Under the pieces are notes generated by a model, which ran no database searches, was not told the DNA's origin, and was given only the letters and a program-made list of their open reading frames with translations. A stretch of 64,000 nt of DNA from a virus, in IMG/VR virus record IMGVR_UViG_3300024239_000013, positions 33,142 through 97,141 of that record; one strand, given 5' to 3'. Position numbers and translations under genes: made by a program. Below, piece by piece: positions 35,548 to 57,789 of this stretch; position 1 is the first letter of the stretch; each line of letters begins with the position of its first letter.

Positions 35548-35573
35548 TTTCTTTATTTTTTTAGCAAGATTAA

Positions 35574-35616
35574 TAAAAAAACACGAGGTATAAAAATTAT
35601 CCTCGTGTTTTTTTAA
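35574..35616. terminator. bidirectional terminator hairpin (CACGAGG-loop-CCTCGTG flanked by an A-run and a T-run)
   Basis: Read in the sequence. Confidence 0.55.
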
Positions 35617-35637
35617 AATTTTATTTAATCTAAATCA

Positions 35638-36489: not shown

Positions 36490-36494
36490 ATTCT

Positions 36495-36926: not shown

Positions 36927-36938
36927 ATCCTATTTTTT

Positions 36939-37685: not shown

Positions 37686-37749
37686 TTTATTTTTTTAGCA
37701 AATTTAACTCAAATGTACGGGAATTAAAAAAAATCTACGTGATATTTAA

Positions 37750-38160: not shown

Positions 38161-38166
38161 TTCTTT

Positions 38167-38625
38167 TTAATTTTCTGATATTTGACTTGAAATCTTTTTA
38201 ACTTTACCAATATCCGCTCTTCCTTGATATTTTTTATTAAACTCACCGATGGTTTTACCTATTAGCGCCTGCTTATTGGTAATCACGTTTTTAAAGCTTT
38301 TCATAATTTCTGAAAGTGCCTCTTCAACCTCTTTATCCGACATTTGTGCTGGCATATAATTTCTAAGAACTGAAGCTTCTGCAGATTCCTTTATAGCCAA
38401 ATCATGTCTTCCGTTTTTTTCAAAGATTTCAATTGACTCTTCCCTTTGCTTGATTGCCTTGTTAATTATTTTAAGAAAATCAGCATCTGTCATTTCCACA
38501 TTTGGATTTGATTTTTCTGCAAGTGTAATTGCTGATTTTACACTACTCAAAGCTGCCTTAGCATCATTGTCCTTATTCTTCATTGCAGATAAAAAATCTG
38601 CATTTACCCTTTCTTTAATTGTCAT
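38167..38625 (-). CDS. YqeY/GatB-domain protein
   Basis: Full-length similarity to the YqeY family (MKxxDxxAKxALSSxK..., KQREESIEIFEKNGRHDLAxKE, YMPxQMSDxE, GRADIGKV). Confidence 0.65.
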   Translation of the reverse strand: MTIKERVNADFLSAMKNKDNDAKAALSSVKSAITLAEKSNPNVEMTDADFLKIINKAIKQREESIEIFEKNGRHDLAIKESAEASVLRNYMPAQMSDKEVEEALSEIMKSFKNVITNKQALIGKTIGEFNKKYQGRADIGKVKKISSQISEN

Positions 38626-39457: not shown

Positions 39458-39538
39458 CCTTCAATAGTCGGATGCTGATTAATATTTATTTATAGATTAT
39501 TTTTTATAAAAGTTCCTTTAGTAGTTTAATTTTTTTCA

Positions 39539-40066
39539 TTATGTATGAATTTTTTTTCCAACCAACCCACATAAAAATTCTGAAACCAATTCTGCCTCTG
39601 GATTCCTCCAAGCATGATTTAAGTAAACGTCGGCCTTATCGTGATAATGGTAATAATTTGAATCTAAATGTCTCTGTGCAGCCTTTGCTGTTAAGAATGA
39701 GTTGATATAAACTGGTTCCATTGAATATGTACATTTTTCTAATTCCGGAACATTTTCTTCAATCCATTCATCTAGTTCAAATCCAAAATCATCGTCCCAC
39801 ATTTCTTTTAGATTATCTGGCTCGTCTACTCCTTTTTCTATAAGATATTCTCTAAATTCCTCAAATTCTTCTATTACTTGGAAATCACCATCTCTGTCTA
39901 TCCAACAGCGGGTATCCCCATTTAAGTCCCAATCATATACTCTTCGCCAGTCTCTTATTTGAAAAATATGAGGCATCCGTGTACATCTTGGATCCTGTGT
40001 TGTCATTTCAGTAGCAAGTTCTATTAGCTTATCGTACATTTCGTCACTAATCTCTATATTTTTCAT
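39539..40066 (-). CDS. hypothetical protein
   Basis: 175-aa ORF. Confidence 0.5.
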   Translation of the reverse strand: MKNIEISDEMYDKLIELATEMTTQDPRCTRMPHIFQIRDWRRVYDWDLNGDTRCWIDRDGDFQVIEEFEEFREYLIEKGVDEPDNLKEMWDDDFGFELDEWIEENVPELEKCTYSMEPVYINSFLTAKAAQRHLDSNYYHYHDKADVYLNHAWRNPEAELVSEFLCGLVGKKIHT

Positions 40067-40652
40067 TATTTAATTCTTGATTTTCAATAAATTCTAATGT
40101 TGCTGCATAAGCAGATCCTTTAAAAACATCGTCTTTCGTCTCTTTTATTGCTCCTTTAAAAAGTCTCTTGAACTCATCAAATCCCTTGTTTTTTAAAATG
40201 ATAAGTCCAACCCCCATTACAGTTTTTGGTCTATCCACTCCGGTTTCTCTGACTATTTCGTCAGCTATATTTTTTATCTCCTCCTGATAACTTGGTTTTA
40301 TGTTATCTAGAGCATTTTCAAGAGCACTATAGAAGCAATTCTCTTCATTTATCAATCTACCTTTGAATGATAAGGATCCGTTGGAGTTTCTAGATATATC
40401 CATATAATAATCCCTATCATCTCTTTCTTCGTGGTCGATTACTCTATATAGAGAATCCTTATAAACAAAATACTCTTCAGTAACATATCCCTTTGAAAAA
40501 TTAGAATGATTAAATTTTTCCGCAAATTCAAAAATCCAATTTTCGCTCAATTCATAACCGAATCTTTTTGCTATGTATTTACAGGTCTCTTCTAGAGTTC
40601 CTTCTAGTTTAACCGGATATAATTTTCCAGTATGAAATTCAATTTTTTCCAT
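40047..40652 (-). CDS. hypothetical protein
   Basis: 201-aa ORF. Confidence 0.5.
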   Translation of the reverse strand: MEKIEFHTGKLYPVKLEGTLEETCKYIAKRFGYELSENWIFEFAEKFNHSNFSKGYVTEEYFVYKDSLYRVIDHEERDDRDYYMDISRNSNGSLSFKGRLINEENCFYSALENALDNIKPSYQEEIKNIADEIVRETGVDRPKTVMGVGLIILKNKGFDEFKRLFKGAIKETKDDVFKGSAYAATLEFIENQELNNEKYRD

Positions 40653-40655
40653 TTT

Positions 40656-41174
40656 TTATCTGTTATAAATCACAACTGTTACTTTGCAATCTGTTATATT
40701 ATTGTGTATAATTTCCTTTATTCTTTCCCAATTTCCTCCAGCTAAACCTGAGCCTATTTTTGGCATCCCTATATGTTTCCCTTTAAAAACCATATTTAAT
40801 TTTCTCATGCATATGGTAAATGCTTCATAATCAAAAGGTATTCTAACCCCATCTTTATGATTCATCCCATATCTAAATTGTGTATACGCATTAACAACGG
40901 TTAGCTCTGGTTCGTTCCTATTGTTTTTGGCATCTTCCAAAGACCATATTGATCTTTCACCCAATACGAATGTCTGGTAATCTATATTACCTAATTTTTC
41001 TATGGAAGGACCGATTCTTTCCATATTGAATTTATCAGCTCCAAATGCCTTTGCCATCTGTGGAGCAATTCCAGCTCCCATTGTCGATTGACAATTACAA
41101 CCATGAACTATAACATCAAAATTTCCTTTTTTGGCCAGATCTATTAAATCCCCATATATTTCTTTGTATTCCAT
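40656..41174 (-). CDS. macro-domain protein (ADP-ribose binding/processing)
   Basis: VIVHGCNCQSTMGAGIAPQMAKAFG resembles the macro-domain N-x-x-N-x-x-L-G-G-G-G-V-x-G-A-I nucleotide-binding loop; about 170 aa as expected. Confidence 0.5.
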   Translation of the reverse strand: MEYKEIYGDLIDLAKKGNFDVIVHGCNCQSTMGAGIAPQMAKAFGADKFNMERIGPSIEKLGNIDYQTFVLGERSIWSLEDAKNNRNEPELTVVNAYTQFRYGMNHKDGVRIPFDYEAFTICMRKLNMVFKGKHIGMPKIGSGLAGGNWERIKEIIHNNITDCKVTVVIYNR

Positions 41175-41335
41175 GGTTATTATTTTCTCCTGTTAAAACC
41201 AGATATTTTAGCTATCACAAAAAAAGGAACTATTATTGCATAAAATTCCCAATTTAAGAAACTAATTCCACCAAAAAAAGAAAGAGCAGCTCCTAGATAA
41301 ATTGGGCCGGATAATTCTAATAATTTTTTCATAAC

Positions 41336-42013
41336 TTATTTTATTTCGTCTATTAATGTTATTTCTGCTGTTTCGTAATCTATTCTGTAAATACCCTTAG
41401 GAACATCCTGATTTTTCCAGTTATATCTATTCTCTATTACAATGCAACTATTTCCTTTGATGATTGAAGAACTATTTTCGAATATTCTCTCTCCTCTTCT
41501 TAGGTCATATATTCCTCCATTAACACTGGCTAAATTTCCGCCCAAATGATATATTGTTTCTAAGCCTCCTGCATCTAGACAAACATCACCTAATCGATTA
41601 ACTACTACGTGATCTCCAAAGCCTTCGAATTTTAATGTTTTTTTACTTTTGTCTTGTATTCTGTTTCCGTATCTTAATAGCGTGCAATAGCCATCCACAA
41701 ATCCGTTTGTTCCGATTCCACCTTTTCTGAAAACTTCACTTGAAATTTTCAACCCGTTGTGGTATAGATACGAGTACCCTAATTTATTTTCCAAAGGTTC
41801 TCCTTTATCGTTTAATTCCTCAATAGGTCTTAGTTCATATCCTTCTTTCAGATCTTGATATTTAGATTCAATCTTCGATGGTTTAATTCCTTCCAATAAA
41901 TTTGATATCAGATGTAAATTAAGAGACTCACTTTTAACAAGTCCAATAATATCTGGATTCATATCAAAATAATTAAATTTTGGATTTTTATTATTATTTT
42001 TCGACATATTCAT
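41336..42013 (-). CDS. hypothetical protein
   Basis: 225-aa ORF. Confidence 0.5.
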   Translation of the reverse strand: MNMSKNNNKNPKFNYFDMNPDIIGLVKSESLNLHLISNLLEGIKPSKIESKYQDLKEGYELRPIEELNDKGEPLENKLGYSYLYHNGLKISSEVFRKGGIGTNGFVDGYCTLLRYGNRIQDKSKKTLKFEGFGDHVVVNRLGDVCLDAGGLETIYHLGGNLASVNGGIYDLRRGERIFENSSSIIKGNSCIVIENRYNWKNQDVPKGIYRIDYETAEITLIDEIK

Positions 42014-42392
42014 ATTTGATTTTCAGAATTCTGTATATAAAATTAGCTTTTTCTATATCTTCTCTGGATTTTGCTAAATCTAATAGATCCTGGAATTCTT
42101 TATCGTATATTTTTACTAGATCTTCTCTAGATTCAGCATCTTCAATCATTTTTTCTACTTTCTCGAAAAAGTTTAAGAATTTAATTCTATCACGAGAAAT
42201 CGAAATTATAGAGATTGACAAAATGCTTATAAAAATTCCCAAGGATAATCCAATCTTTAGGTTTACTAACATTGAAAATTTGGAATCCATTATCGAAAAT
42301 AAAGCAAAAGAATAAATAGATGAGATGAGCCACATAACAATAAAAATTTTAAATAAGCTTGATTCCATCAAGAATGCTGAGAATTTTTTCAT
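41994..42392 (-). CDS. membrane protein (three or four hydrophobic helices)
   Basis: 132 aa, strongly hydrophobic. Confidence 0.45.
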   Translation of the reverse strand: MKKFSAFLMESSLFKIFIVMWLISSIYSFALFSIMDSKFSMLVNLKIGLSLGIFISILSISIISISRDRIKFLNFFEKVEKMIEDAESREDLVKIYDKEFQDLLDLAKSREDIEKANFIYRILKIKYEYVEK

Positions 42393-42403
42393 AATGATTG
42401 TAT

Positions 42404-42847
42404 TTATATTTTGATCTCTCTATTAATATCTCTTTCTATATCTCTATTTTTAATAACTTCCCTTTTATCATAGTTCTTTTTACCCCTAGATAAAGATATC
42501 TCTAATTTAAATAAGGACCTATCATTTTCATAAATTCTGCAAGGAACTATACTCATACCTTTTATTAGATCCTTTTGGAGTTTATTAAGCTCCTTTCTTT
42601 TTAATAAAAGTTTTCTATCTCTTTTTGGATTGTGTGAATAGTTTGGGTTCGTCGATGATATGTGTAGGTTTCTTATGAAAAGTTCATTATTTATAAAATA
42701 GCAATAAGAATCTGTAAAATCAATTCTATTTTCTCTAATAGATTTTACCTCAGATCCAACCAATTGAATCCCTGCATCTAATTTTTTTATAAATTCAAAT
42801 TCAAATTTTGCTTTTTTGTTAATGATATTTATTTTTGATGGTTTCAT
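42404..42847 (-). CDS. smpB: SmpB (SsrA/tmRNA-binding ribosome-rescue protein) homolog
   Basis: End-to-end collinearity with bacterial SmpB: KFEFEFIKKLDAGIQLVGSEVKSIRENRIDFTDSYCYF..., RKLLLKRKELNKL, GMSIVPCRIYENDRSLFKLEISLSRGKKNYDKRE. Confidence 0.75.
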   Translation of the reverse strand: MKPSKINIINKKAKFEFEFIKKLDAGIQLVGSEVKSIRENRIDFTDSYCYFINNELFIRNLHISSTNPNYSHNPKRDRKLLLKRKELNKLQKDLIKGMSIVPCRIYENDRSLFKLEISLSRGKKNYDKREVIKNRDIERDINREIKI

Positions 42848-43158
42848 ATTAGTCCTGAGAGTTTAAATTCGAGTCCATTTTTTTTAGCTTTAATCTCAGC
42901 TTTTACCTCTATAACAGCATCTCCTAGATAATCACGATCGGTTTTTTCTACTGTGATGTCTATGTATCCTTCGTCTAAAAGTTGATTCGTTAATTTATTT
43001 AATACCTCACTTTTCACTTTTTCGATGATAAGTTGTTCAACTGATGATCCTCGATAAGCAAAAGCTCCGAATCTATAAGATGCTGATGCTTTAAAAATCT
43101 TAGTTTCCGGTTCATCAAAAAGCTTTCTTATGGTTTTTAATGATTTATCATGATCCAT
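42844..43158 (-). CDS. hypothetical protein
   Basis: 104 aa; overlaps the smpB start (ATGA). Confidence 0.5.
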   Translation of the reverse strand: MDHDKSLKTIRKLFDEPETKIFKASASYRFGAFAYRGSSVEQLIIEKVKSEVLNKLTNQLLDEGYIDITVEKTDRDYLGDAVIEVKAEIKAKKNGLEFKLSGLI

Positions 43159-43207
43159 TTTTTTTTATATCTTTTTTACGATTGCAAATTTAATAACTAT
43201 ATACGAT

Positions 43208-43243
43208 CAAAAAAAATAAATCCTGGTTATTTAACCAGGATTT
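43208..43243 (-). terminator. terminator hairpin (AAATCCTGGTT-loop-AACCAGGATTT) followed by T8 on the minus strand
   Basis: 11-bp stem. Confidence 0.55.
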
Positions 43244-43625
43244 ATATCATCTTTAAAATATTTTTAACCTTCGTTGTTTTTTTCAATTTTTTCAATATTT
43301 CATCACTAATTTCTTCTTCTAGTGTAAATTCTAATCTTTGAGAATTCCCATTGGGAGAAAAGTTCCAATCAAATCCTATCCCAATAATCTTTTTTAGATT
43401 TTCCACCAATTCGTCCATATAATAGGATATCCTTTTGGGTATTCTACCGTCGAATAACATTGACCAATATTCTATTACAAATTGTTCTGAGTTGATGATT
43501 AAATAATCACATTCCATCATACGGTCCTTAAAAAATTCAGTAATATATGGCTTATAGAAATCTATTAAAAATTCCAGATTCTCTTTCTCATCATCGAAAT
43601 TCTCATAAATCTTAATGTTATTCAT
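43242..43625 (-). CDS. protein with targeting-like N-terminus (MNNIKIYENFDDEK)
   Basis: 127 aa. Confidence 0.55.
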   Translation of the reverse strand: MNNIKIYENFDDEKENLEFLIDFYKPYITEFFKDRMMECDYLIINSEQFVIEYWSMLFDGRIPKRISYYMDELVENLKKIIGIGFDWNFSPNGNSQRLEFTLEEEISDEILKKLKKTTKVKNILKMI

Positions 43626-43626
43626 A

Positions 43627-44424
43627 TTATATCATTTTCCAAATTTTCCTGGTTTTTAAAACATTCTTGATTGTTTTTAGATTTTTTTCATTAATCTCGA
43701 TATTATCTTCATTAAAAATTTTAATGAATCCATGGAATATTCTTTTTTTAGCTGATATAGGTAGTTTATCTACTGATTCTATATACTGTGGATTTTCTAA
43801 AAGTGTCTTTGTGAATATTTCACTTAAAATATCTTTATCGACTATTTCACTTAGGGTTGATGGATTATTATAAAATTCATCTATTAAATTATCGTAAAGA
43901 TCTTTTACATTTTGTATTATTTTAGAGGATAAACCTTCAATTTTTTTTATATTAGAAGGAGCTATCAATCTAACATCCTTTAATTTCTCGATAAGATAAT
44001 CTAATGCTTCCTCTATTATAGACTTTAATTGATTATAGTCTCTTGGATTTGCTATGACATTTATTCTATGCCTTTCATCCCATTCATAGGTCTTTTTTAT
44101 TTCATATTCACCTATATTTAAACTTTCATCTATTGATATTTTAATACTTAGAAAATTCCCGATTAAATCCGGAACTGTGTCAAATCCGGTTAGATCTAGA
44201 AGCTTCTCTATCTCAGTTTTTATTTCACCAACATATGTTTTAATGGTTATTAAATAGTATGGAACTTTAGCTTCTAGTTTTCTGTCTATCTCTACGTATT
44301 TTCTACGATTATTTTTTGTGAAATCTAGATCTGCATAAAGTTTTTCTGAGAAATCTTGATCTAAGAAATTTCTAGGCTTATCCGATGATTCATTTATCCA
44401 ATTATTAAAATTCTTAACTTCCAT
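43627..44424 (-). CDS. protein with targeting-like N-terminus (MEVKNFNNWINESSDKP)
   Basis: 265 aa. Confidence 0.55.
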   Translation of the reverse strand: MEVKNFNNWINESSDKPRNFLDQDFSEKLYADLDFTKNNRRKYVEIDRKLEAKVPYYLITIKTYVGEIKTEIEKLLDLTGFDTVPDLIGNFLSIKISIDESLNIGEYEIKKTYEWDERHRINVIANPRDYNQLKSIIEEALDYLIEKLKDVRLIAPSNIKKIEGLSSKIIQNVKDLYDNLIDEFYNNPSTLSEIVDKDILSEIFTKTLLENPQYIESVDKLPISAKKRIFHGFIKIFNEDNIEINEKNLKTIKNVLKTRKIWKMI

Positions 44425-45716: not shown

Positions 45717-46454
45717 TTATTTCTCCTTTAGCAAGAATGAATTAGAAATGGATTTGAAAGATATTGTTTTATCCTTGTTTCTAATAACCACTCCTTCTCT
45801 CTCCGCTCCATTGTATAGTTTTGATTTACCCTCTGCGTAAAGAAGAATTTCATCGACAGTTTCTGGTAGGCTATAATTTTCCTCGAGCACAGGAACAAGT
45901 TCAAGTGGTTTATCGTCATTATTAACTTTAGATAGGAATTCCCTCATTTCATCTAATCCTAGATATTCTTGAGTGTCAATATTGAAAATATTGAAAACTC
46001 TAAGAGTATGCCCTTTTATTTTATATGGATTCCCTTGAATTCCTTCACCGATAAGTTCACCCTGGATTGCGTAATTTTGATTAAGAGATCCTAGTTTTTC
46101 TGCTATCTTTAGCTCTCTAGCAACCTTCCAGAATGTATTTTCTTTTTTGGTTCTTTCGACACCATCTTCACCAATGATAGTACCAGGTACAAATTCTCCA
46201 GGATCCGCTAACTCAAGGTTTCTTGAACAGACTCCGAAAACTCCGTCTTTTAAATAGAAGGTTGCGGAACTTCCGTCTAGTTTTTCAGTCACATAAAACC
46301 TTTCAGTCTTCCAGCCCTCGTACTCTTTGGTTAGATTTTGACAGTTATGTACTAAAATATCGTTTGCATAGAAGTTATGAACTTTATCTACTTCAATGTC
46401 ATAACGTTTTGATTCATGATTTATCTTCTTAATAGATTTAATTTTATCTAACAT
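45717..46454 (-). CDS. C-terminal half of a fractured polynucleotide ligase. The C-half of a split intein (residues 1-37, ...KVHNFYANDILVHN; about 46344-46454) is fused to an Rnl2-like nucleotidyltransferase domain starting at Cys+1 (CQNL...VTEKLDGSSATFYLKDG)
   Basis: Split-intein C-half-like terminal HN followed by Cys; KxDG adenylyltransferase motif I, motif IV GEGIQG and motif V REGVVIR in the extein. Confidence 0.7.
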   Translation of the reverse strand: MLDKIKSIKKINHESKRYDIEVDKVHNFYANDILVHNCQNLTKEYEGWKTERFYVTEKLDGSSATFYLKDGVFGVCSRNLELADPGEFVPGTIIGEDGVERTKKENTFWKVARELKIAEKLGSLNQNYAIQGELIGEGIQGNPYKIKGHTLRVFNIFNIDTQEYLGLDEMREFLSKVNNDDKPLELVPVLEENYSLPETVDEILLYAEGKSKLYNGAEREGVVIRNKDKTISFKSISNSFLLKEK

Positions 46455-47416
46455 AGTATTTCTTTTAAAAGGTTATAGATTTCTTCGTTTGTCATATTAT
46501 TAATATCACTCTCCCAAAAATAGTGAACTGTATATCCTTTAGATTCTATAAGCTTACGTTTCCGATTGTCTTTCTTCCAAACATCCTTTGCTAAAAGACC
46601 ATCTAAAAGAACGTCAGACTCTTTATAGAACTTAGGATTAGCATGCCAAAAGTCACCTTGAACTTCTATGATAACTTTATTCTTAAATATCAGATCCCAG
46701 TTATATGCATATAGAAATCCGTTTGCCGTATATTCTACATCTAATTGATTTAGTATTGTCTGAATTCTGATCTCTTGACTACTTACATAATTTATATTAG
46801 CTCTTGCTTTTTCTGTCATCCGCCTGCGTTCATCCGCCGTCATTTTAGATATTCTTTTCTTCTGTGACTCTCCAATCTTCACCGAAACACCTGGGATTTG
46901 AGAAGGATTATAAACGCTATCTCCGTATTTTTTGATAAGAGTATCTCTTATAGATTCTTGGGCCTTTTCATAGTCTATATGTGACTGTGCAACCTTCCGT
47001 ATCTTTGGGTTGCAGAAGTTGTTCTCATATCCAAAGTTCTTTAGGAACGTCTCTTTCTTTTTTTTCTTGATGGCTTTAGCCTGTGATGGATTCTTAACCC
47101 CAAACCGTTTCATATTAGTAGACTCAATCTTATCTTTATAAACCTTGGTCTTTTTGCTTTCGCTATTAGTTCGTTTAATCCCAAGTAATTCGATATAATT
47201 TGCAAATGAAACCCCATACATTTCTTTAAGATCAGAGACATTATAACCTTCAAGATATAGATCCTTTACCGTATCGAAGGTTCTATCTTCTATTTCTATT
47301 TGAGATTTAATGTAGTTTACCTCATTTGTTAATTTATTAATGTTGTGATGTCTATTAATGTGTATTTTTAATATGTTCGTTTGATTGAATTCTTTATTGC
47401 AGATAATACACCTCAT
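46448..47416 (-). mobile_element. free-standing homing-endonuclease-like gene located between the two ligase halves; N-terminal C2H2 zinc finger (CIICNKEF...HINRHH) plus C-terminal Vsr-like/DUF559 PD-(D/E)xK nuclease domain (IIEVQGDFWHANP...KDNRKRKLIESKGYTVHYFWESD)
   Basis: Motifs read in the translation; genomic position matches the fractured-gene arrangement. Confidence 0.6.
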
Positions 47417-47490
47417 AATAAGTTTCCTTTTATTTATATATCTCTTATTTATATAAAAAACAATAAATAATCAGTCTTTTTAATAACTTT

Positions 47491-48300
47491 TTAGGTTATT
47501 TTAACGGTTTCATTACCTAAAAGATCTCTAACTTCTCTGAAGCATTTTAATTCAGGAAGCCAAATACGATGATTTCCAGTAGCTTTAATAGTCTTACCAG
47601 ACTCTAGTTCAATCATGTACCAATCGTTATTATTCTTTTGAATAGAATGACTGTTAATGGAGTTCATTTCATTTTCATCAGTTATAGTATTGTATGATAG
47701 AACCTTACCTGTATACTTTGACTCACAGATTTCCTTGATAGTCATTGGACCGTCTTCTGTGTTAACAATAACATCTTCAGACAAGCATCTTTCTTCATCA
47801 GTCTTTCTGATAAATGACGGGAAGTATCCCTTAACCTTTCCTGCTAGCTGTGCTGGAATAGGAGGTTCGTATTTTATGATTCCGAGAAGATCTGTTACAT
47901 CTAGACCCTCTTCTATAACAATAGAACCACCAGTCCCCAATTGTAATTTGTCTCCTTGTGGTTGTTTGCTAATTCCAACGACCATTTCTTTTTCACTTCT
48001 CAAAGTAGATAAAGGCAATAAAAGCCCTTGACTTAATTCTTGTCTAAGTCTAATAGTCTTTAATCTAAATCCTTCAATGTCCCCCATTTTTTTATATGAG
48101 GATTTTCTTAGAAATTCGAATTTTTCATCAATTGGTAAGAATGAATCAACTTCACAATAAATAGCCAATTCTCCCTCCTTATATTCTCCAATTCTAGTTA
48201 TAACTTTCCATCCACCAATATGACAAATCTCAAGTGAGTCTGCATTGGGATGTTTAGTTATTTTATCAATTCTCTTTACTGATGCTAATTTTCTTTCCAT
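47491..48300 (-). CDS. N-terminal half of the fractured polynucleotide ligase. N-extein (residues 1-171, with a tRNA-binding-domain-like OB N-terminus KHPNADSLEICHIGGWKV) is fused to the N-half of a split intein (residues 172-269, CLSEDVIVNTEDGPMTIKEI...IKATGNHRIW...; about 47494-47787)
   Basis: The intein N-half is collinear with DnaE split-intein N-halves (CLSYETEILTVEYGLLPIGKI...IRATKDHKF...); the ORF terminates right after the intein block. Confidence 0.7.
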   Translation of the reverse strand: MERKLASVKRIDKITKHPNADSLEICHIGGWKVITRIGEYKEGELAIYCEVDSFLPIDEKFEFLRKSSYKKMGDIEGFRLKTIRLRQELSQGLLLPLSTLRSEKEMVVGISKQPQGDKLQLGTGGSIVIEEGLDVTDLLGIIKYEPPIPAQLAGKVKGYFPSFIRKTDEERCLSEDVIVNTEDGPMTIKEICESKYTGKVLSYNTITDENEMNSINSHSIQKNNNDWYMIELESGKTIKATGNHRIWLPELKCFREVRDLLGNETVKIT

Positions 48301-50721: not shown

Positions 50722-51773
50722 CTATTTTTTAAATCTATTAAAAGAATTGACGGTGATCAAATTCCATTTAACTTTACCTATAAAATAATTAAGACTCCTT
50801 GAATTTGTGTAACTCATTGCAGAACTTAAATAGCTTTTTAAGTTATCAACCCATCCGTTGATTGTATATTCAACCGGCTGCATTCTAGTAACACCCTCGC
50901 TAGTTTTAAGTACAGTTTTACCCATTGCTAACTGTGCCTCCTTGGTACTCATTCCTCTGAACTTCTTAAACATTTTGGTTCCGAAGTTAAATAGCTGTTC
51001 AGTTTCCTTGGAGTATTGATCTACTCTTTCTCCAGGCTCTGTCCACCCTTCTTTTTTATTGTTTGCAAGATATGTTTCCCCGCACTCTCTAGAGCTTTAT
51101 TTAATATAGACCCAAGCATAATATAATCTGCTCCTAAAGCCAATCCTTTAATAATATCAGAATAACTTTTAAATCCACCATCAGCAACTATTTTTGAAGG
51201 ATTCGTTAGAGATTTTTTAATTCGATAACACTCATCAATTAGTGATGCCATAGGATAACCGATACCTGTCTGAACTGTAGTAAGACATCCTCCCCCATTA
51301 CCAATACCAATTCTAATATAATCTGCTCCGGCATCTGAAAAAATCTTATATGTTTCAGGATAAGCAACATTCCCGACCATTAATACTAAATCTTCTCCGT
51401 ACATATCTTTGCCTTTTTTGACTAGATCTAGTAATTTAGTCATATGGCCGTTAGCTATATCGATAAGAATATAATACTTTCCCTCTCTCTTATTTTTAAT
51501 AAAGAGTTCTTCGAATTGGTCCATTCCAATAGCTCTAAAAAAATCGAAAGATGTATTTTCTAAATTGGAATCAGAATATTCGGTCCTTGGCATTATTACT
51601 TTGATTCCTGCTTTAAGGAAGAAATCTTTATTTTCTTCACAAATTACAGTATCCATAGGTGCTGTAAAAAGGGGAAGATATCCATCCTCATATAAAACAT
51701 TAACTTCTTTTCTTGAAGTAATTTCGCTAATCGTAGCGGGAGTAATTAAAATATCATCAAAATCAAATTTCAT
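50722..51773 (-). pseudogene. GMP reductase / IMPDH-family (beta/alpha)8 enzyme interrupted by a -1 frameshift at a GGGGAAA tract (about 51085-51095). N-part is track ORF 51021..51773; C-part continues in the -1 frame through KMFKKFRGMSTKEAQ...EGVTRMQPVEY to 50722
   Basis: N-part carries the conserved GIGNGGGCLTTVQTGIGYP and ADGGFKSYSDIIKGLALGADYIMLGS blocks; hand translation of the other frame restores the canonical ...ESxGE-x-Y...RGMSS...EGKTV C-terminus. Confidence 0.6.
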
Positions 51774-52653: not shown

Positions 52654-53328
52654 TTATTTCAACTTTTTAGATTTGATAACTTCATCAATTATACCATATT
52701 CAACTGCATCTTCTGAGCTTAACCAGAAATCTCTGGTTGCATCATTTTTTACCTGTTCGGCAGTTTTTCCACAATATTCGCCAAGAAGCTCAAATAAAAT
52801 CTCATTGTATTTTTTCCACTCTAACATATCAATTTCTGCGTCTTGTATGTTTCCGCTAAATCCACCGCTGGATTGGTGAAGCATAACCTTACTAAATCTT
52901 AGTGAGGCTCTTTTACCCTTAGTTCCTGCTCCCAATAAAACAGATCCCATTGAAGCTGCCATTCCTGTATTCACTGTTACTATGTCGGATTTAATGTAAC
53001 CCATAACGTCAACCATACTAAGTCCAGATTTAACAGATCCTCCTGGTGTGTCAATATGCATTGTAATGTCTCTATCATCAACAGAATCTAGAAACATAAG
53101 TTGTGCTTGTACAACGGTAGACATGTCGTCGTTAACAACTCCCGCAACCCAAAGAATTCTATCCATCATTAACCTATCAAAGACTGTCATCTGAGTAACT
53201 CTAAGCTGTCTCTCCTCGAGAATCATAGGAGTCATTGATGACTGGATTTTTTTGTCATAATAATCCAATTTCATAGAACTTATTCCGCTGCTCAGAGCAT
53301 ATTTTTTAAATTCCGCTGATGTATTCAT
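52654..53328 (-). CDS. clpP: ClpP-family serine protease. Probable start at the internal Met (MNTSAEFKK...); the track ORF extends to 53403
   Basis: Full-length ClpP similarity: DRILWVAGVVND, IDTPGGSVKSGLSMVDVM, GMAASMGSVLLGAGTKGKR, MLHQSSGGFSGNIQDAEI. Confidence 0.7.
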   Translation of the reverse strand: MNTSAEFKKYALSSGISSMKLDYYDKKIQSSMTPMILEERQLRVTQMTVFDRLMMDRILWVAGVVNDDMSTVVQAQLMFLDSVDDRDITMHIDTPGGSVKSGLSMVDVMGYIKSDIVTVNTGMAASMGSVLLGAGTKGKRASLRFSKVMLHQSSGGFSGNIQDAEIDMLEWKKYNEILFELLGEYCGKTAEQVKNDATRDFWLSSEDAVEYGIIDEVIKSKKLK

Positions 53329-53350
53329 ATTTAATCTATATTTTGTTTTT

Positions 53351-53755
53351 TTAATAATGTAAATCAATAAATAAAAAATCCTGATCGTCTTTATAGCTAA
53401 CACAACTCCAAGCAGGATGATATTGTTCTTTCAGCTCATCCCCAATCTCAATAATATTCGATAATGGATCCTCGATATCATATTCAGGTTCAAGACCACA
53501 TTCTCTTCTTTTAGATTCTTTTAAAAGATTTTCATTCATTTTTTTTGCTGAATGATAGGTAACACCTTCCTTTAGATAAACCCCCCAATCATTTCTTTCG
53601 AAATAAAAGTCCTCAACCCTCTGTATCATTATTTTTGCGTCATCTGGGATTCCATTTTTCTTTACGAATTCCTTTAGCCCACCAACAGTCAAATGCTGTT
53701 TATAATTCTTAATATCTTCTTTTGTGAGTTTTTTAATATTATTTTTATTCCTCAT
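53351..53755 (-). CDS. hypothetical protein
   Basis: 134-aa ORF. Confidence 0.45.
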   Translation of the reverse strand: MRNKNNIKKLTKEDIKNYKQHLTVGGLKEFVKKNGIPDDAKIMIQRVEDFYFERNDWGVYLKEGVTYHSAKKMNENLLKESKRRECGLEPEYDIEDPLSNIIEIGDELKEQYHPAWSCVSYKDDQDFLFIDLHY

Positions 53756-54150
53756 TTTTTTCTAAATTTAACATAGTTTTCTAAATATGAGGAGATGTTT
53801 TTTCCTCCTGCAGGATTCATAGAATGAACCAAATATTCAGGAAGATCCAAATCATTATCTATACAATAATCAACCAACCACTTTGCACAATCTAACCCAG
53901 TTTTTTCTTTAAATCTTTTGTACAATTTATTATAAGAACCCCCGTACATTTTTGGAGAGTAATGCTCATCAGCGAGGTCATGATCAAAAGAAATTATCTT
54001 AGGAAGACCTTTTTTGATGATGTAATCAACAAACTCGTCATAGTTTCTAACGATTACCCATTCCAATTTAGAATATATTGGGAGCTTCATATACTTTATA
54101 CAGTCATAAGGATGTCTAAAATCATCCAGAAATAAATTGTAATTCATCAT
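53752..54150 (-). CDS. hypothetical protein
   Basis: 132-aa ORF. Confidence 0.45.
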   Translation of the reverse strand: MMNYNLFLDDFRHPYDCIKYMKLPIYSKLEWVIVRNYDEFVDYIIKKGLPKIISFDHDLADEHYSPKMYGGSYNKLYKRFKEKTGLDCAKWLVDYCIDNDLDLPEYLVHSMNPAGGKNISSYLENYVKFRKK

Positions 54151-54161: not shown

Positions 54162-54542
54162 TTATTTTATTTTAATAAATAAATTTCCTGATTCTATAGA
54201 GGAAATACACAATAAATATTCAACCAATGTGATTTTTTTATTGTTTATTTCCATGTAAATTGAGTTTAGAAGAACTCTATCACTAAATGTTCCACCAAAT
54301 TCGTCACACTTTAGAATTATCTTAGTGTTCTTACCAAAAATCTCTGTTCCGAGGTCAGTTAAAAGATCCCTTGAAATATTAAAACTTATAGTTTTATGTG
54401 CATATCTAGCAAATACCCTTAGAATAGATCCACGAAGTTTTGTTTTAAAGATTTCCAGAATTGGGGATTCTCCTAGCTCTTCATAGCTCATATTATAATT
54501 TTCGAGATCCTCTTTTTTTATATTGAAATCTATGGTAGGCAT
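54162..54542 (-). CDS. hypothetical protein
   Basis: 126-aa ORF. Confidence 0.45.
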   Translation of the reverse strand: MPTIDFNIKKEDLENYNMSYEELGESPILEIFKTKLRGSILRVFARYAHKTISFNISRDLLTDLGTEIFGKNTKIILKCDEFGGTFSDRVLLNSIYMEINNKKITLVEYLLCISSIESGNLFIKIK

Positions 54543-55288: not shown

Positions 55289-55708
55289 TTATAATTCTAT
55301 TTCAAATCTATCTTTCATTTTTCTTATAGATTCTTCAGGAACCTCGTGAACATTAGTTCCCCCGTGTCTGTTCTCTATAATTATACTAGTTACCATATAA
55401 CCATATTCCTTTGCCAATTTGAAATATGGTTCCATTTCCCATTCTTGTGTAAATGTATTGGAAACTACTATTTCTGGATAATATCGAGAGTTTTGTTTAT
55501 TCTCTTTCATTCTATTCTCAACCTCATTTCTACACCATTCATGTGCAGCTTTTAATTTAGAAGGATTGAAATTATATTCCCCAGTTTCTTTATCGTAGAA
55601 ATATTTGTCAGCCTCGCATATTTCACAATCATTCCAAAGATGTCTTGCGAATGTAGATTTACCAGAGCCAGGTACACCTCTAATTAAAAATAGTGTAGGA
55701 TTCAACAT
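55289..55708 (-). CDS. polynucleotide 5'-kinase (T4 Pnk kinase-domain-like P-loop protein)
   Basis: LIRGVPGSGKSTFARHL versus T4 Pnk TIGCPGSGKSTWAREF; LAKEYGYMV versus T4 FAKEYGWKV. Confidence 0.65.
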   Translation of the reverse strand: MLNPTLFLIRGVPGSGKSTFARHLWNDCEICEADKYFYDKETGEYNFNPSKLKAAHEWCRNEVENRMKENKQNSRYYPEIVVSNTFTQEWEMEPYFKLAKEYGYMVTSIIIENRHGGTNVHEVPEESIRKMKDRFEIEL

Positions 55709-55741
55709 TTTTGTGGATTTTTTTAGATTTAATTTATTAAA

Positions 55742-56386
55742 TTAATTTTCCATGTGATGGTCTTTAGGTAGGACAAGAGTCTTTATTGGTCTGCCTTTTA
55801 AAATACCTAAGATCTCGTCTAGACTATATGGCTTTAAATCGTTACCATCAACTCCTACATCCATTGCTCTCCCCGAATTTACCTTTAAATTAGGTGGAAG
55901 ATGAACGTGTCCATGCAGATGTGGAACTCCCCTCCCCATATCTTCCCAGCTAGCAACAGGGAAGTGACTGCAGAAAAATTTGTATTTTTCAGTTTCTTTA
56001 TCCCGAGGTCTTCTTATTTCTAAGATATCATAGAATGCAACTTCTTTGAATATCTCTTGAATACCTTCTCTATTATTTTTTATGTGATGATCGTGATTTC
56101 CAAGAAATATGATAATATTCTTACATTTTATTTGAGATCTAAATTGTTCTATGGATTCAAATCCACCAAAACTCCAATCCCCTAAGTGGACTAAATAATC
56201 ATTCTCGTCAACATATAAATTTATTCCGTTAACAAGAGCGGAATTCATTTCCCCTAAGCTGTGGAAATCCCTAGTTCTGCTGGATTTATCACTCCAAGTT
56301 GAAACTCCTCGACAAATATTCTGGTGTGAATAGTGAGTATCGCTAGTAAACCAAATTTTCTGGTTCTTTTCTAATGTTATTTTCAT
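55742..56386 (-). CDS. calcineurin-like metallophosphoesterase (candidate 2',3'-cyclic/3'-phosphate end-healing phosphatase)
   Basis: WFTSDTHYSH, GDWSFGG, GNHDHH and HGHVH metallophosphoesterase motifs; sits between the kinase and Rnl1 genes, as in bacterial Pnkp. Confidence 0.6.
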   Translation of the reverse strand: MKITLEKNQKIWFTSDTHYSHQNICRGVSTWSDKSSRTRDFHSLGEMNSALVNGINLYVDENDYLVHLGDWSFGGFESIEQFRSQIKCKNIIIFLGNHDHHIKNNREGIQEIFKEVAFYDILEIRRPRDKETEKYKFFCSHFPVASWEDMGRGVPHLHGHVHLPPNLKVNSGRAMDVGVDGNDLKPYSLDEILGILKGRPIKTLVLPKDHHMEN

Positions 56387-56392
56387 AATTAT

Positions 56393-57490
56393 CTAATCTT
56401 CTGTTTTATTCCAAAATGGTTTTTGATATTTGGGTCTTATCATTTTCCAGATTTTTTCTGAATAGTCATTCCCATCATAGAACATAAATAAAATACTTGT
56501 TATATCTCTATCTTGTTCTTTTGCCCATTCTGCAAATTCCTTCCTTCCTTTATCTTTTTCAAAATCTGGTCTTTTTTCAAAGAAGCTCTTGTAAATATCG
56601 TTTACTCTTTCCTCTATTGATGAATAGTTATATTTCAATTCTTTTATTATTTTCTTCACCCAAAGATCAAATTCATCAGGAACCCTATCCAAAAAATTAC
56701 CAAGATCCTGTTTATTTTTTAAGAGCTCCCAGATATCCACATTCGAGAAGTTTGTCAATAGTCTATGTAATCTAACATATTCCTCGCCTTTTATTTTCAT
56801 TCTGAATCCGGAAGAAAATCTAATAACGAAACCCTCGGAATTTGAAGATATTATTTTTTTAAGCTCTTTGTAATTATTAAGACCGTCATATTTTTTAACT
56901 ACTTTAAACCCTATAGTTCCTAGAATACCCTGGTTTTTTAAGTTCATTAAGCTTTTTTCGTCAGAGTGAATATCATATTCATATCCATCTAAATTATCAA
57001 TAACTGAAAGTAAAATGATATCCTCAAAATCATAGCTAACAACTATTCGATTTTCTGGGTAGATAATCTCGAATAAATAAGTGCAATCTTTCAACAAATC
57101 CTTATAATGATATTTCTCCAATATAGATCTTCCCCTTATCGCTTGCTCTGAAGTGAATGATCCTTTTGTAGCAAAATGCCATTCCCCTTCGTAATTGAAA
57201 AGTATACCCAAGGATCCGTCCATCTTCTCGAAAACATCAAAATTTTCGTTCGGAATATCGCTAGAATCCAATTCTTCTAAATTAAAGAATTTAGGAAATG
57301 TCCTTGCAACGACATTTCCTTCCCTATCAAGAACCGTCCCTCTCATATTAAGAGTGATTTCATCCCACTCTTTAGAGAATTGGCACTCTCTTGAATAGTT
57401 ATAAATATCCAAAGGTAATGATGGATGAGAATTTTTTTCTAAAAGACCTCTTTCAATATAGGAATTGAGAATATTTATATCGTATTTCAT
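56393..57490 (-). CDS. RNA ligase 1 (T4 gene 63 / Rnl1-like tRNA repair ligase)
   Basis: Collinear with T4 Rnl1: MRGTVL (CRGIMF), FPKFFNL (PMEKFFNL), motif I EKMDGSL (KEDGSL), ATKGSFTSEQA (FKSKGSIKSEQA), EIIYPENRIVVSY. Confidence 0.75.
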   Translation of the reverse strand: MKYDINILNSYIERGLLEKNSHPSLPLDIYNYSRECQFSKEWDEITLNMRGTVLDREGNVVARTFPKFFNLEELDSSDIPNENFDVFEKMDGSLGILFNYEGEWHFATKGSFTSEQAIRGRSILEKYHYKDLLKDCTYLFEIIYPENRIVVSYDFEDIILLSVIDNLDGYEYDIHSDEKSLMNLKNQGILGTIGFKVVKKYDGLNNYKELKKIISSNSEGFVIRFSSGFRMKIKGEEYVRLHRLLTNFSNVDIWELLKNKQDLGNFLDRVPDEFDLWVKKIIKELKYNYSSIEERVNDIYKSFFEKRPDFEKDKGRKEFAEWAKEQDRDITSILFMFYDGNDYSEKIWKMIRPKYQKPFWNKTED

Positions 57491-57789
57491 TTCATATTAT
57501 TATAGTCGCAAATGTATGATATTATTTCGGGATTAAAAAAAATTAAAGATAAAGTTTTACTTTTTTAATGATTATTTATATAAGAATGAATGCAGGTAAC
57601 TTTCAATTTATATTTTATCCACATAACAATAACCATTTCAATTAAGGTCGTTTGTAATTTTAAATTTCAGAAAAGGAACGACACATACATCTATCAATTA
57701 AAAGTAATTCTAAAAAAAATTAATAGAATTTAAGATAGATATATTTTTTAAAAATACGCGTGAACAACTTCTATTTTCATATTCACGTT

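What the first reader, a model, noticed from the sequence alone, without database searches (positions are those of the whole stretch)
55289..57490. Pnkp-like end-healing split into separate kinase and metallophosphoesterase genes, directly followed by Rnl1
Gene order on the minus strand is Rnl1 (56393..57490), then calcineurin-type phosphoesterase (55742..56386), then Pnk-type P-loop kinase (55289..55708). T4 fuses the kinase to a HAD phosphatase; here the phosphatase is replaced by a metallophosphoesterase, as in bacterial Pnkp. In T4 this enzyme set exists to reverse host anticodon-nuclease (PrrC) cleavage of tRNA-Lys. Its presence predicts the host carries an anticodon-nuclease defence.
Basis: established knowledge. 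Interest (0 to 1): 0.6.

Follow-up and report, generated by a model that had tools for sequence, protein, structure and literature searches.

The report
Phage RNA heal-and-seal gene module
A jumbo phage carries three adjacent genes (an RNA ligase, a metal-dependent phosphoesterase and a small RNA-end kinase) that together look like a kit for mending RNA cut by host defences; the kit is real, but it is common in phages and was already predicted by comparative genomics.

Summary
Three tightly packed minus-strand ORFs sit at exactly the stated coordinates. They are a T4-type RNA ligase 1 (56393-57490), a calcineurin-superfamily metallophosphoesterase (55742-56386) and a 139-aa P-loop kinase (55289-55708).

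The three genes are linked, always on the same strand but in shuffled orders, in most related viral contigs and in cultured Aeromonas and Pseudomonas phages. A cREC (predicted cyclic-phosphate-processing) gene lies three genes downstream.

- The phosphoesterase belongs to the uncharacterised aq_1665/COG4186 clade, not the lambda-phosphatase/Pnkp clade.
- Stand-alone kinases are the rule, so "split Pnkp" is a misnomer.
- The inference of a host anticodon nuclease is plausible but untestable here, and too narrow.

The gene neighbourhood is already described by Iyer et al. (2021, 2022), so this is a new member of a known kind.

The trio heads a roughly 27-kb block that also holds Thg1-like, CCA-adding-like, SmpB, Macro-like and Band-7 genes. 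The block also carries a second ligase of DraRnl type, broken by a split intein.

The parts
56393..57490 (-). Rnl1-family ATP-dependent RNA ligase (365 aa), the sealing enzyme
   Evidence: PF09511 3.6e-18 and phrog_562 7.8e-67 over the full length. T4 Rnl1 structures 2c5u/5tt6 match at E 2e-12. hhalign of the family profile against T4 Rnl1 gives 99.2% probability, columns 49-354 against residues 50-366 of 374. Motif I is K89 (EKMDGS), motif III E141 (FEIIYPENRIV), motif IV E219-G220 (EGFVIR), motif V K232/K234 (KIKGEEY). R50, K67, K89, E141, E219, G220, K232, K234 and Y238 are invariant in 29 homologues.
55742..56386 (-). Calcineurin-superfamily metallophosphoesterase of the aq_1665/COG4186 clade (214 aa); predicted 2',3'-cyclic phosphodiesterase / 3'-phosphatase for RNA 3' ends
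55289..55708 (-). Stand-alone Pnk-type P-loop kinase (139 aa); predicted 5'-OH polynucleotide kinase
53752..54150 (-). cREC (cyclic-phosphate-processing receiver-like) protein, 132 aa; frequent accessory of the module
   Evidence: PF20274 cREC_REC 1e-21 over the full profile (77.9 bits, cutoff 27) and phrog_1479 1.1e-27. It lies within 3 kb of the ligase in 12 of 35 non-redundant ligase-anchored loci, always on the same strand. The literature predicts, without experimental test, that it opens 2',3'-cyclic phosphates (PMC7824862, PMC9503650).
54544..55284 (-). Unknown 246-aa protein between kinase and cREC; a clade-specific passenger or accessory
   Evidence: No Pfam, PHROG, NCBIfam, PADLOC or PDB match. 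It holds the same position only in the three closest contigs. Weak hits occur in three Bacillus phages.
54162..54542 (-). Unknown 126-aa protein between kinase and cREC
   Evidence: No family match. A homologue was found in one related contig only (L005/L084, 29% identity).
53351..53755 (-). Unknown 134-aa protein directly downstream of cREC (4-nt overlap); recurs inside related modules
   Evidence: No family match. Homologues lie between MPE and kinase in L139, directly after cREC in L005 and L006, and near the kinase in L007/L008.
57491..57789 (-). AT-rich 299-nt intergenic region upstream of the ligase; probable start of the transcription unit (not shown)
   Evidence: Sequence. The sigma-70 consensus scan found no more sites than shuffled sequence (35 found, 42 expected), so the promoter is inferred only from the gap followed by tight packing of downstream genes.

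Best explanation
This is a phage-encoded RNA 'heal-and-seal' module made of separate enzymes. When a host or competitor RNase cuts a tRNA or other RNA, it leaves a 2',3'-cyclic phosphate and a 5'-OH. The 139-aa Pnk-type kinase would phosphorylate the 5'-OH. The metallophosphoesterase would convert the cyclic or 3'-phosphate end to a 3'-OH; in loci such as this one, the downstream cREC protein may help or do this step instead. The Rnl1-family ligase would then adenylate the 5'-phosphate and seal the break.

Shown here: the gene identities, intact catalytic motifs, the Pnk-like fold of the kinase, conserved same-strand linkage in shuffled orders, and gene fusions of the kinase family to Rnl1 and to HD phosphoesterases.

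Inferred: the substrates (RNA ends, tRNA in particular), the division of labour between MPE and cREC, and the counter-defence role.
For: The kinase fold is closest to the T4 Pnk and CthPnkp kinase domains, with profile matches to T4 PseT and bacter_Pnkp.

Linkage, in non-redundant IMG/VR loci with at least 5 kb on both sides:
- Of 41 kinase-anchored loci, 31 have the MPE and 22 have Rnl1 within 3 kb.
- Of 35 ligase-anchored loci, 28 have the kinase, 25 the MPE and 12 cREC.
- All are on the same strand.
- Gene orders vary: MPE-KIN-RNL1, RNL1-MPE-KIN, KIN-RNL1-cREC. That pattern argues for selection on linkage rather than inherited synteny.

Fusions: KIN-Rnl1 (P0131, P0189), Rnl1-KIN (P0218, P0229) and HD-KIN (P0139, P0149, P0209, P0227, P0241, P0265). 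One PHROG profile of 737 positions (phrog_8238) is hit by the kinase at positions 4-119, the MPE at 179-252 and the ligase at 439-713.

The same trio occurs in cultured Aeromonas phage vB_AceP_PAc, contiguous as MPE-Rnl1-kinase, and in Pseudomonas phage EM, a Pakpunavirus.

The surrounding 27 kb holds further tRNA/RNA-repair genes: Thg1-like, CCA-adding-type NTase, SmpB, Macro-like, Band-7 and a DraRnl-type ligase.

Published comparative genomics describes the same neighbourhood (T4-like tRNA ligase + cREC + nucleotide kinase +/- calcineurin-like phosphoesterase) as RNA repair (PMC9503650 section 3.7.3; PMC7824862 section 3.4.9).

Metallophosphoesterases can heal RNA 2',3'-cyclic phosphate ends, as shown for CthPnkp and lambda phosphatase (PMC2190708, PMC3675462).
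Against: - No member of this MPE clade or of this stand-alone kinase family has been assayed, as far as I could find. The only related solved structure (aq_1665) has no known function.
- The MPE lacks the phosphate-binding Arg of GDxxDR that is essential in CthPnkp (PMC3675462).
- The kinase has F37 where T4 Pnk has the acceptor-contacting Arg38 (and the T4 sequence; residue roles are from my own knowledge).
- The wider MPE family occurs in many phages whose genera are absent from the ten commonest in the kinase hit list (Staphylococcus, Listeria, Bacillus). Its closest cultured homologue (60% identity, Flavobacterium phage immuto) has no annotated ligase or kinase in the 12.6 kb examined.
- Kinase homologues in 80 bacterial genome loci show no Rnl1 and, but for one locus, no MPE within the ~5 kb flanks; the two loci whose neighbours were scanned (Vibrio harveyi, a Bacteroidetes MAG) sit among unrelated genes.
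- No tRNA gene lies in the window, and the host and its defences are unknown.
Confidence: 0.7

Rival explanations
1. The ligase and kinase do repair RNA, but the metallophosphoesterase is not the 3'-end healing enzyme. cREC or another phosphoesterase does that step. The MPE instead hydrolyses a small molecule, such as a cyclic or oligonucleotide defence signal, Ap4A, or an ADP-ribose derivative.
For: The MPE belongs to the uncharacterised aq_1665/COG4186 clade. Its next structural neighbours are LpxH, the MJ0936 phosphodiesterase and ApaH-like enzymes, which act on small molecules. It lacks the GDxxDR Arg. The family is broader than the kinase/ligase distribution. Some modules have KIN-RNL1-cREC without the MPE. 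Related phage neighbourhoods carry NAD/ADPr enzymes (PMC9503650).
Against: The MPE is the most tightly linked partner of the kinase (31 of 41 loci within 3 kb). Most trios lack cREC (28 of 37 non-redundant trios), so without the MPE they would have no 3'-healing activity. phrog_8238 indicates kinase-MPE-ligase fusions. The MPE-versus-cREC complementarity is not significant (Fisher p = 0.058).
Confidence: 0.17
2. The module serves the phage's own RNA metabolism rather than counter-defence. Examples would be maturation or quality control of RNAs cut by phage-encoded RNases. Alternatively, the ligase acts mainly in tail-fibre attachment, as T4 gp63 also does.
For: T4 Rnl1 (gp63) is annotated with a second role as tail-fibre attachment catalyst. 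The neighbourhood contains general translation-maintenance genes (SmpB, CCA-adding-type NTase, Thg1-like, YqeY). No host nuclease can be named.
Against: Tail-fibre attachment would not explain conserved linkage and fusion with end-healing enzymes. In T4, the only case tested experimentally, the Pnk and Rnl1 pair is needed only on prr hosts (annotation; established knowledge).
Confidence: 0.08
3. The 139-aa P-loop protein is a nucleotide, nucleoside or other small-molecule kinase, and its adjacency to the ligase is incidental.
For: The Pfam match is to the generic AAA_33 family. The best sequence match in the PDB is AvrRxo1, an NAD kinase-like toxin (E 1e-3). Sources name it only 'predicted kinase', and Iyer et al. 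call it a 'nucleotide kinase' (PMC9503650). Bacterial homologues are orphans.
Confidence: 0.05

Closest known systems
Bacteriophage T4 Pnkp (PseT) + Rnl1 (gp63) tRNA repair pathway
   Different: T4 fuses its kinase to a HAD (DxDxT) phosphatase. Here the kinase stands alone (139 aa) and a separate binuclear metallophosphoesterase plus a cREC gene take the phosphatase slot. The ligase is only about 31% identical to T4 Rnl1 over the catalytic domain and scores below NCBI's equivalog cutoff (69 against 242 bits).
Phage neighbourhood 'T4-like tRNA ligase + cREC + nucleotide kinase (+ MazG, sirtuin, occasionally calcineurin-like phosphoesterase)' of Escherichia phage V5 / Proteus phage Mydo, and the jumbo-phage RNA repair complements (Iyer et al. 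2021, 2022; PMC7824862, PMC9503650)
   Same: The component families match: Rnl1, cREC, small kinase, calcineurin-like phosphoesterase. The RNA-repair interpretation is the same, and so is the jumbo-phage setting (the MPE is 100% identical to a protein on a 319-kb contig).
   Different: No sirtuin or MazG was found among the roughly 65 window ORFs scanned. Here the MPE is a constant member rather than an occasional one: 76% of kinase-anchored relatives have it within 3 kb.
Bacterial Pnkp (Clostridium thermocellum Pnkp/Hen1 system)
HD-Pnk (Runella slithyformis; Munir & Shuman 2017, cited in PMC6097658)
   Same: Close homologues of this kinase (42-49% identical) carry an N-terminal HD domain, the same HD-kinase architecture. 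HD-Pnk is also encoded next to a ligase (PMC6097658).
   Different: The window kinase has no HD domain. I could not show that the Runella enzyme itself belongs to this kinase subfamily: the genome scan did not retrieve it and the paper is not held.
aq_1665 (PDB 1xm7) / COG4186 'predicted phosphoesterase'
   Different: aq_1665 is a structural-genomics protein with no known function, so it gives no biochemical anchor.

Membership tests
Rnl1 (T4 RnlA-type ATP-dependent RNA ligase) | Covalent nucleotidyltransferase motifs I (KxDG lysine), III, IV and V | tested here: met
   K89 in EKMDGS, E141 in FEIIYPENRIV, E219-G220 in EGFVIR, K232/K234 in KIKGEEY. They align to T4 K99, E159, E227-G228 and K240/K242 and are invariant in 29 homologues.
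Rnl1 (T4 RnlA-type ATP-dependent RNA ligase) | Family profile match above the curated threshold | tested here: met
   PF09511 scores 66.7 bits against a cutoff of 28.3, covering positions 2-227 of 227.
Rnl1 (T4 RnlA-type ATP-dependent RNA ligase) | Full-length architecture, including the Rnl1-specific C-terminal domain (implicated in tRNA specificity in T4) | tested here: inconclusive
   The protein is colinear with T4 Rnl1 to residue 366 of 374 in hhalign (99.2% probability), to phrog_562 positions 21-367 of 377 and to TIGR02308 positions 67-363 of 373. C-terminal similarity is weak: BLASTP aligns only residues 46-250. No structure was predicted for the ligase.
Rnl1 (T4 RnlA-type ATP-dependent RNA ligase) | NCBI equivalog score for T4 RnlA (same function as T4 enzyme) | tested here: not met
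   TIGR02308 scores 69 bits against a cutoff of 242.25. It is a family member, not a close ortholog.
Rnl1 (T4 RnlA-type ATP-dependent RNA ligase) | Seals 3'-OH/5'-PO4 RNA ends in tRNA anticodon loops | not testable with these tools
   Requires biochemistry.
Pnk-type 5'-OH polynucleotide kinase (T4 Pnk / CthPnkp kinase clade) | P-loop GxxxxGK[ST] plus a downstream catalytic Asp (T4 D35) and a lid Arg (T4 R126) | tested here: inconclusive
   The P-loop G11-K17-S18 is present, and D34 (EAD) and R114 (ENRH) are invariant. Their equivalence to T4 D35 and R126 rests on position only, because hhalign gaps the D34 region. F37 stands where T4 has R38.
Pnk-type 5'-OH polynucleotide kinase (T4 Pnk / CthPnkp kinase clade) | Fold closer to polynucleotide kinases than to other P-loop kinases | tested here: met
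Pnk-type 5'-OH polynucleotide kinase (T4 Pnk / CthPnkp kinase clade) | Phosphorylates 5'-OH polynucleotide ends | not testable with these tools
   Requires biochemistry. Indirect support comes from fusions to Rnl1 and HD domains.
T4-type Pnkp (kinase fused to HAD/DxDxT 3'-phosphatase) | C-terminal HAD phosphatase domain in the same polypeptide | tested here: not met
   The protein is 139 aa and consists of the kinase domain only. It aligns only to T4 PseT residues 4-141.
Bacterial Pnkp (kinase-phosphatase-ligase, Pnkp/Hen1) | Single trifunctional polypeptide in the order kinase-phosphatase-ligase | tested here: not met
   There are three separate ORFs in the order ligase-phosphatase-kinase. 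TIGR04075 matches only the kinase, at 21 bits against a cutoff of 750.
Bacterial Pnkp (kinase-phosphatase-ligase, Pnkp/Hen1) | Phosphatase of the lambda-phosphatase-like clade with GDxxDR (CthPnkp Arg237 essential) | tested here: not met
Bacterial Pnkp (kinase-phosphatase-ligase, Pnkp/Hen1) | Partner Hen1 2'-O-methyltransferase | tested here: not met
   No methyltransferase hit appears among the roughly 65 window ORFs scanned. Not every small ORF was scanned.
Calcineurin-like binuclear metallophosphoesterase superfamily | Metal-binding motifs DxH, GD, GNH[DE], H, GHxH | tested here: met
   D16xH18, G69D70, G96N97H98D99, H141 and G159H160xH162 are all invariant in 41 sequences. PF00149 scores above its cutoff. 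The model has the MPE fold.
cREC (PF20274, cyclic-phosphate-processing receiver-like domain) | Profile match above threshold, with receiver-type acidic residues | tested here: met
   53752-54150 scores 77.9 bits against a cutoff of 27 over profile positions 1-88 of 88. The sequence shows LFLDDF and SFDHDL acidic motifs. The catalytic role is a published prediction only.
HD-Pnk | N-terminal HD phosphoesterase fused to the kinase | tested here: not met
   The window kinase has no HD domain. Only its homologues P0139, P0149, P0209, P0227, P0241 and P0265 do.

The most novel reading that the evidence does not exclude
The aq_1665/COG4186-type metallophosphoesterase, alone or with cREC, may be a distinct and biochemically uncharacterised class of RNA 3'-end healing enzyme. 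Together with a minimal stand-alone Pnk and Rnl1, it would form the commonest phage RNA repair kit. In this jumbo phage the kit would be one arm of a co-oriented ~27-kb 'translation-apparatus repair island'. That island also holds a Thg1-like 5'-end repair enzyme, a CCA-adding-type 3'-end repair enzyme, SmpB, a Macro-like phosphatase, a Band-7 scaffold candidate and a trans-spliced DraRnl-type ligase. If so, the phage is equipped against several different kinds of tRNA damage, not only a PrrC-like cut.
Probability: 0.3. Interest if true: 0.5.

Novelty: new member of a known kind. Interest (0 to 1): 0.3.

Why it matters
tRNA-cleaving and other RNase-based defences are now recognised as widespread, and phage countermeasures are of practical interest for phage therapy and host-range prediction. 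This module shows that the T4 heal-and-seal strategy is implemented in many phages with different parts: a minimal stand-alone kinase and a metallophosphoesterase clade that nobody has assayed.

The three families occur in many cultured phage genomes (kinase 626 records, MPE 952, Rnl1 1776). These include Pseudomonas Pakpunavirus and Escherichia/Klebsiella phages, so the function could be tested in tractable systems. For this window itself the result is ordinary: a correct annotation of a known kind of module.

Tried and rejected
- **Sequence searches of the PDB with single proteins.** The kinase gave only AvrRxo1 (1e-3) and the MPE only aq_1665. A profile of close kinase homologues gave marginal hits (CthPnkp 0.015, T4 Pnk 0.023). 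Fold comparison was needed to settle the question.
- **Promoter/terminator scan.** It found no more sites than shuffled sequence, so the operon boundaries remain inferred.
- **Rfam at gathering threshold and ARAGORN.** No RNA genes were found in the whole window. No tmRNA, tRNA-like or Y-RNA partner was found for SmpB or Band-7.
- **Genome scan with an HD-kinase alignment.** It was meant to link the family to Runella HD-Pnk. It returned only orphan kinase domains in Vibrio, Halomonas and Bacteroidota MAGs and did not retrieve Runella.
- **Papers not held.** Burroughs & Aravind 2016 and Munir & Shuman 2017 could not be read.
- **afdb50 fold library.** It was unavailable.
- **PADLOC.** It gave nothing meaningful.
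- **The 246-aa, 126-aa and 134-aa ORFs inside the block.** They have no informative homologues.
- **The idea that cREC replaces the MPE.** It was tested on non-redundant loci and gave only a non-significant trend (p = 0.058).
- **The idea that the IMPDH-like gene is also intein-fractured.** Rejected: its two pieces show no intein motifs.
Full report
**Observation**

The three ORFs exist exactly as described. The ORF listing gives minus-strand ORFs at 56393-57490 (365 aa), 55742-56386 (214 aa) and 55289-55708 (139 aa). They are separated by 6 and 33 nt. A 299-nt AT-rich gap lies upstream of the ligase. Tightly packed or overlapping co-oriented genes follow downstream as far as about 51.8 kb.

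- Ligase: PF09511 RNA_lig_T4_1 at 3.6e-18, and phrog_562 ('RNA ligase and tail fiber protein attachment catalyst') at 7.8e-67 over the full length.
- Phosphoesterase: PF00149 Metallophos at 5e-8, and phrog_547 at 4.6e-42.
- Kinase: PF13671 AAA_33 at 1.4e-12, phrog_2071 at 1.4e-44, and phrog_505 'polynucleotide kinase' at 1e-7.

**The source is a jumbo phage**

The window has about 30% G+C. It has no close cultured relative; the only DNA-level hits are short stretches in Flavobacterium phages and huge uncultured phages. The MPE is 100% identical to a protein found on a 319,334-bp contig.

**Ligase**

It matches the T4 Rnl1 crystal structures at E 2e-12 and is about 31% identical to T4 Rnl1 across the catalytic domain. 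All nucleotidyltransferase motifs are present and invariant in 29 homologues:
- Motif I: K89.
- Motif III: E141.
- Motif IV: E219-G220.
- Motif V: K232/K234.
- Also R50, K67 and Y238.

A family profile aligns to T4 Rnl1 from residue 50 to 366 of 374 at 99.2% probability. The architecture is therefore colinear with T4 Rnl1, including the C-terminal domain, although similarity there is weak. The protein scores below NCBI's T4-RnlA equivalog cutoff (69 against 242 bits). It is a family member, not a close ortholog. The nearest cultured full-length homologues are in Streptomyces and Arthrobacter phages (32-37% identity).

**Kinase**

Sequence alone was ambiguous. The best PDB hit was AvrRxo1 at 1e-3, and a profile of close homologues gave only marginal hits to CthPnkp, T4 Pnk and PSTK.

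All of these rank ahead of gluconate, shikimate and adenylate kinases. hhalign of the family profile against T4 PseT gives 94.5% probability over T4 residues 4-141. The best NCBIfam hit is the kinase end of bacter_Pnkp.

Invariant residues include the P-loop (G11...G16-K17-S18), D34, R114-H115 and H121. D34 and R114 are in the positions expected for the T4 Pnk general base and lid arginine. That mapping is positional only. F37 replaces T4 R38.

The family is very large. It has 8,836 50%-identity cluster representatives at E up to 1e-3, and these are mostly stand-alone proteins of 130-150 aa.

The multidomain members are the informative ones:
- Kinase-Rnl1: P0131, P0189.
- Rnl1-kinase: P0218, P0229.
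- HD-kinase: P0139, P0149, P0209, P0227, P0241, P0265. This is the architecture of the biochemically characterised Runella HD-Pnk end-healing enzyme (described in PMC6097658).

I could not show that the Runella enzyme itself belongs to this subfamily.

**Phosphoesterase**

All five binuclear-metal motifs are intact and invariant: D16xH18, G69D70, G96N97H98D99, H141 and G159H160xH162. A family-specific C-terminal LPxDHH motif is also conserved.

- The only significant PDB sequence relative is the uncharacterised Aquifex protein aq_1665 (profile E 3.6e-8).
- Motif II is GDWSFGG. It lacks the Arg of GDxxDR, which contacts the scissile phosphate and is essential in CthPnkp (PMC3675462).
- Viral structural neighbours are all 'putative phosphoesterase / COG4186'.

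I found no biochemical anchor for this clade.

**Linkage**

I fetched 159 IMG/VR loci anchored on homologues of the kinase or the ligase and mapped the window's proteins onto them.

| Anchor (non-redundant, at least 5 kb on both sides) | Loci | MPE within 3 kb | Rnl1 within 3 kb | Kinase within 3 kb | cREC within 3 kb |
|---|---|---|---|---|---|
| Kinase | 41 | 31 | 22 | n/a | 5 |
| Ligase | 35 | 25 | n/a | 28 | 12 |

Partners are always on the same strand. The order varies: MPE-KIN-RNL1 is the commonest, RNL1-MPE-KIN occurs as here, and KIN-RNL1-cREC also occurs. Shuffled order with preserved linkage argues for functional coupling.

One PHROG profile of 737 positions is hit by the kinase (4-119), the MPE (179-252) and the ligase (439-713). 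This indicates fused kinase-MPE-ligase proteins in some phages.

Cultured phages carry the same set:
- Aeromonas phage vB_AceP_PAc has MPE-Rnl1-kinase as contiguous genes.
- Pseudomonas phage EM (Pakpunavirus) has the MPE four small genes upstream of overlapping rnlA and kinase genes, next to NAD and Macro genes.
- Streptomyces phage Battuta pairs a related Rnl1 with a gene annotated 'polynucleotide kinase' (about 297 aa) next to tRNA genes.

Across the phage collection, the kinase hits 626 records, the MPE 952 and Rnl1 1776.

**Additional members and neighbours**

A cREC gene (PF20274, 1e-21) lies three genes downstream of the kinase at 53752-54150. The literature predicts that cREC opens 2',3'-cyclic phosphates and reports its linkage to RNA ligases. 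It is experimentally uncharacterised (PMC7824862, PMC9503650).

Most trios lack cREC. A few KIN-RNL1-cREC loci lack the MPE, but the complementarity is not significant (counts 9/28/4/2, Fisher p = 0.058).

The two ORFs between the kinase and cREC (246 and 126 aa) and the 134-aa ORF after cREC have no detectable family. The 246-aa ORF is conserved in place only in the three closest contigs. The 134-aa ORF recurs inside other modules.

**The wider block**

The trio heads a roughly 27-kb run of minus-strand genes enriched in RNA-repair and translation-rescue functions:
- a DraRnl/Rnl5-type RNA ligase (TIGR02306),
- SmpB,
- a Macro-like 'phosphatase',
- a Thg1-like 3'-5' nucleotidyltransferase,
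- a YqeY-like protein,
- a PolyA_pol/CCA-adding-type nucleotidyltransferase,
- a 631-aa Band-7/SPFH protein.

No tRNA, tmRNA or Rfam family was detected in the 64 kb.

**Mechanism**

The best-supported reading is a multi-protein heal-and-seal pathway for RNA cut by metal-independent RNases:
1. The kinase phosphorylates the 5'-OH.
2. The MPE, and/or cREC, removes the 2',3'-cyclic or 3'-phosphate.
3. Rnl1 seals the break.

Shown here are the gene identities, intact active sites, the Pnk-like fold, and the linkage and fusions. Substrates and biological role are inferred. The inference rests on T4 (the annotation and established knowledge) and on the demonstrated 2',3'-cyclic phosphodiesterase activity of other metallophosphoesterases (PMC2190708).

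Caveats:
- The MPE clade is untested and lacks the CthPnkp phosphate-binding Arg.
- The wider MPE family occurs in many phages whose genera are absent from the ten commonest in the kinase hit list.
- Bacterial kinase homologues are orphans with no ligase detected nearby.

**Novelty**

[quoted passage not shown] This includes jumbo phages (PMC9503650 section 3.7.3; PMC7824862 section 3.4.9).

This locus is therefore a new member of a known kind. It is correctly spotted but ordinary. The open question is biochemical: what the aq_1665-type MPE and cREC actually do at RNA ends.

Noticed in passing
window 45717-48300 (minus strand): A second RNA ligase, of DraRnl/Rnl5 type (TIGR02306), is 'fractured' by a split intein with a free-standing endonuclease gene between the halves. 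The N piece (47491-48300) is an OB-fold followed by the junction ...KTDEER|CLSEDV..., an intein N-half with a TGNHRIW block. The middle ORF (46448-47416) has a zinc finger plus a Vsr/DUF559-like endonuclease. The C piece (45717-46454) is an intein C-half ending ...ILVHN|CQNL, followed by motif I TEKLDGSS. The arrangement resembles the 'fractured genes' of Dassa et al. 2009 (my own knowledge).
   Followed up: partly
window 31028-44000 (minus strand): This stretch is a cluster of tRNA-repair and translation-rescue genes in a phage. It holds Band_7/SPFH (31028-32923), a PolyA_pol/CCA-adding-type NTase (34804-35547), NT5C (35638-36114), a YqeY-like protein (38167-38625), a Thg1-like 3'-5' NTase (38615-39457), a Macro-like 'phosphatase' phrog_335 (40656-41174) and SmpB (42404-42847). 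SmpB is present, but no tmRNA, tRNA or Rfam RNA was found anywhere in the 64 kb.
   Followed up: partly
window 5488-15233 and 16699-17661 (plus strand): There is a tandem array of 11 paralogous genes (231, 288, 294, 314 or 315 aa; 63-75% identical), with a twelfth weak LRR hit at 16699-17661. They encode leucine-rich-repeat proteins. Members differ in the number of ~21-aa 'FxCSxNxLTSLEGxPKEVGG' repeats, between conserved N- and C-terminal regions.
   Followed up: partly
window 50722-51773 (minus strand): An IMPDH/GMP-reductase-like gene appears as two consecutive ORFs: 51021-51773 (250 aa, with the GIGNGGGC catalytic loop) and 50722-50973 (83 aa, resembling the C-terminal part). No intein motifs are present. 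It could be a frameshift, a pseudogene or a sequencing error.
   Followed up: partly
window 52654-53403 (minus strand): A ClpP-like serine protease (PF00574, 5.5e-55) lies just downstream of cREC. It is the most conserved gene of the block in the closest relatives (78-87% identity). Its role (prohead protease or ATP-dependent protease subunit) was not examined.
   Followed up: no
L002 (Flavobacterium phage vB_FspM_immuto_2-6A) 4880-6651: The closest cultured homologue of the MPE (60% identity) lies immediately after four tRNA genes (Cys, Ser, Glu, Gln). No ligase or kinase is annotated in the 12.6 kb examined.
   Followed up: no
L164-L243 (bacterial genome contigs), e.g. L213 Vibrio harveyi 4992-5381: Stand-alone homologues of the kinase (33-52% identical to an HD-kinase fusion of the same family over the kinase domain) occur in Vibrio, Halomonas-group and Bacteroidota chromosomes. 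No Rnl1 and, but for one locus, no MPE lies within the ~5 kb flanks. In the two loci scanned the neighbours are unrelated genes (glycosyltransferases, a cyclophilin, secreted proteins). Their function is unknown.
   Followed up: partly
L139 10661-11014; L006 9226-9603; L005 9969-10373; L007/L008 12513-12878: Homologues of the unknown 134-aa ORF (window 53351-53755) recur inside or next to RNA-repair modules of other viral contigs. One lies between the MPE and the kinase in L139. This suggests an uncharacterised accessory component.
   Followed up: no
L003 (Klebsiella phage KP13-16) and L245 (Pseudomonas phage EM): In cultured phages the kinase/MPE genes sit among NAD-related genes: NadR, PnuC, a CobB-type sirtuin, nicotinate phosphoribosyltransferase and a Macro domain protein. 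This echoes the published link between phage RNA repair and NAD/ADP-ribose metabolism.
   Followed up: no
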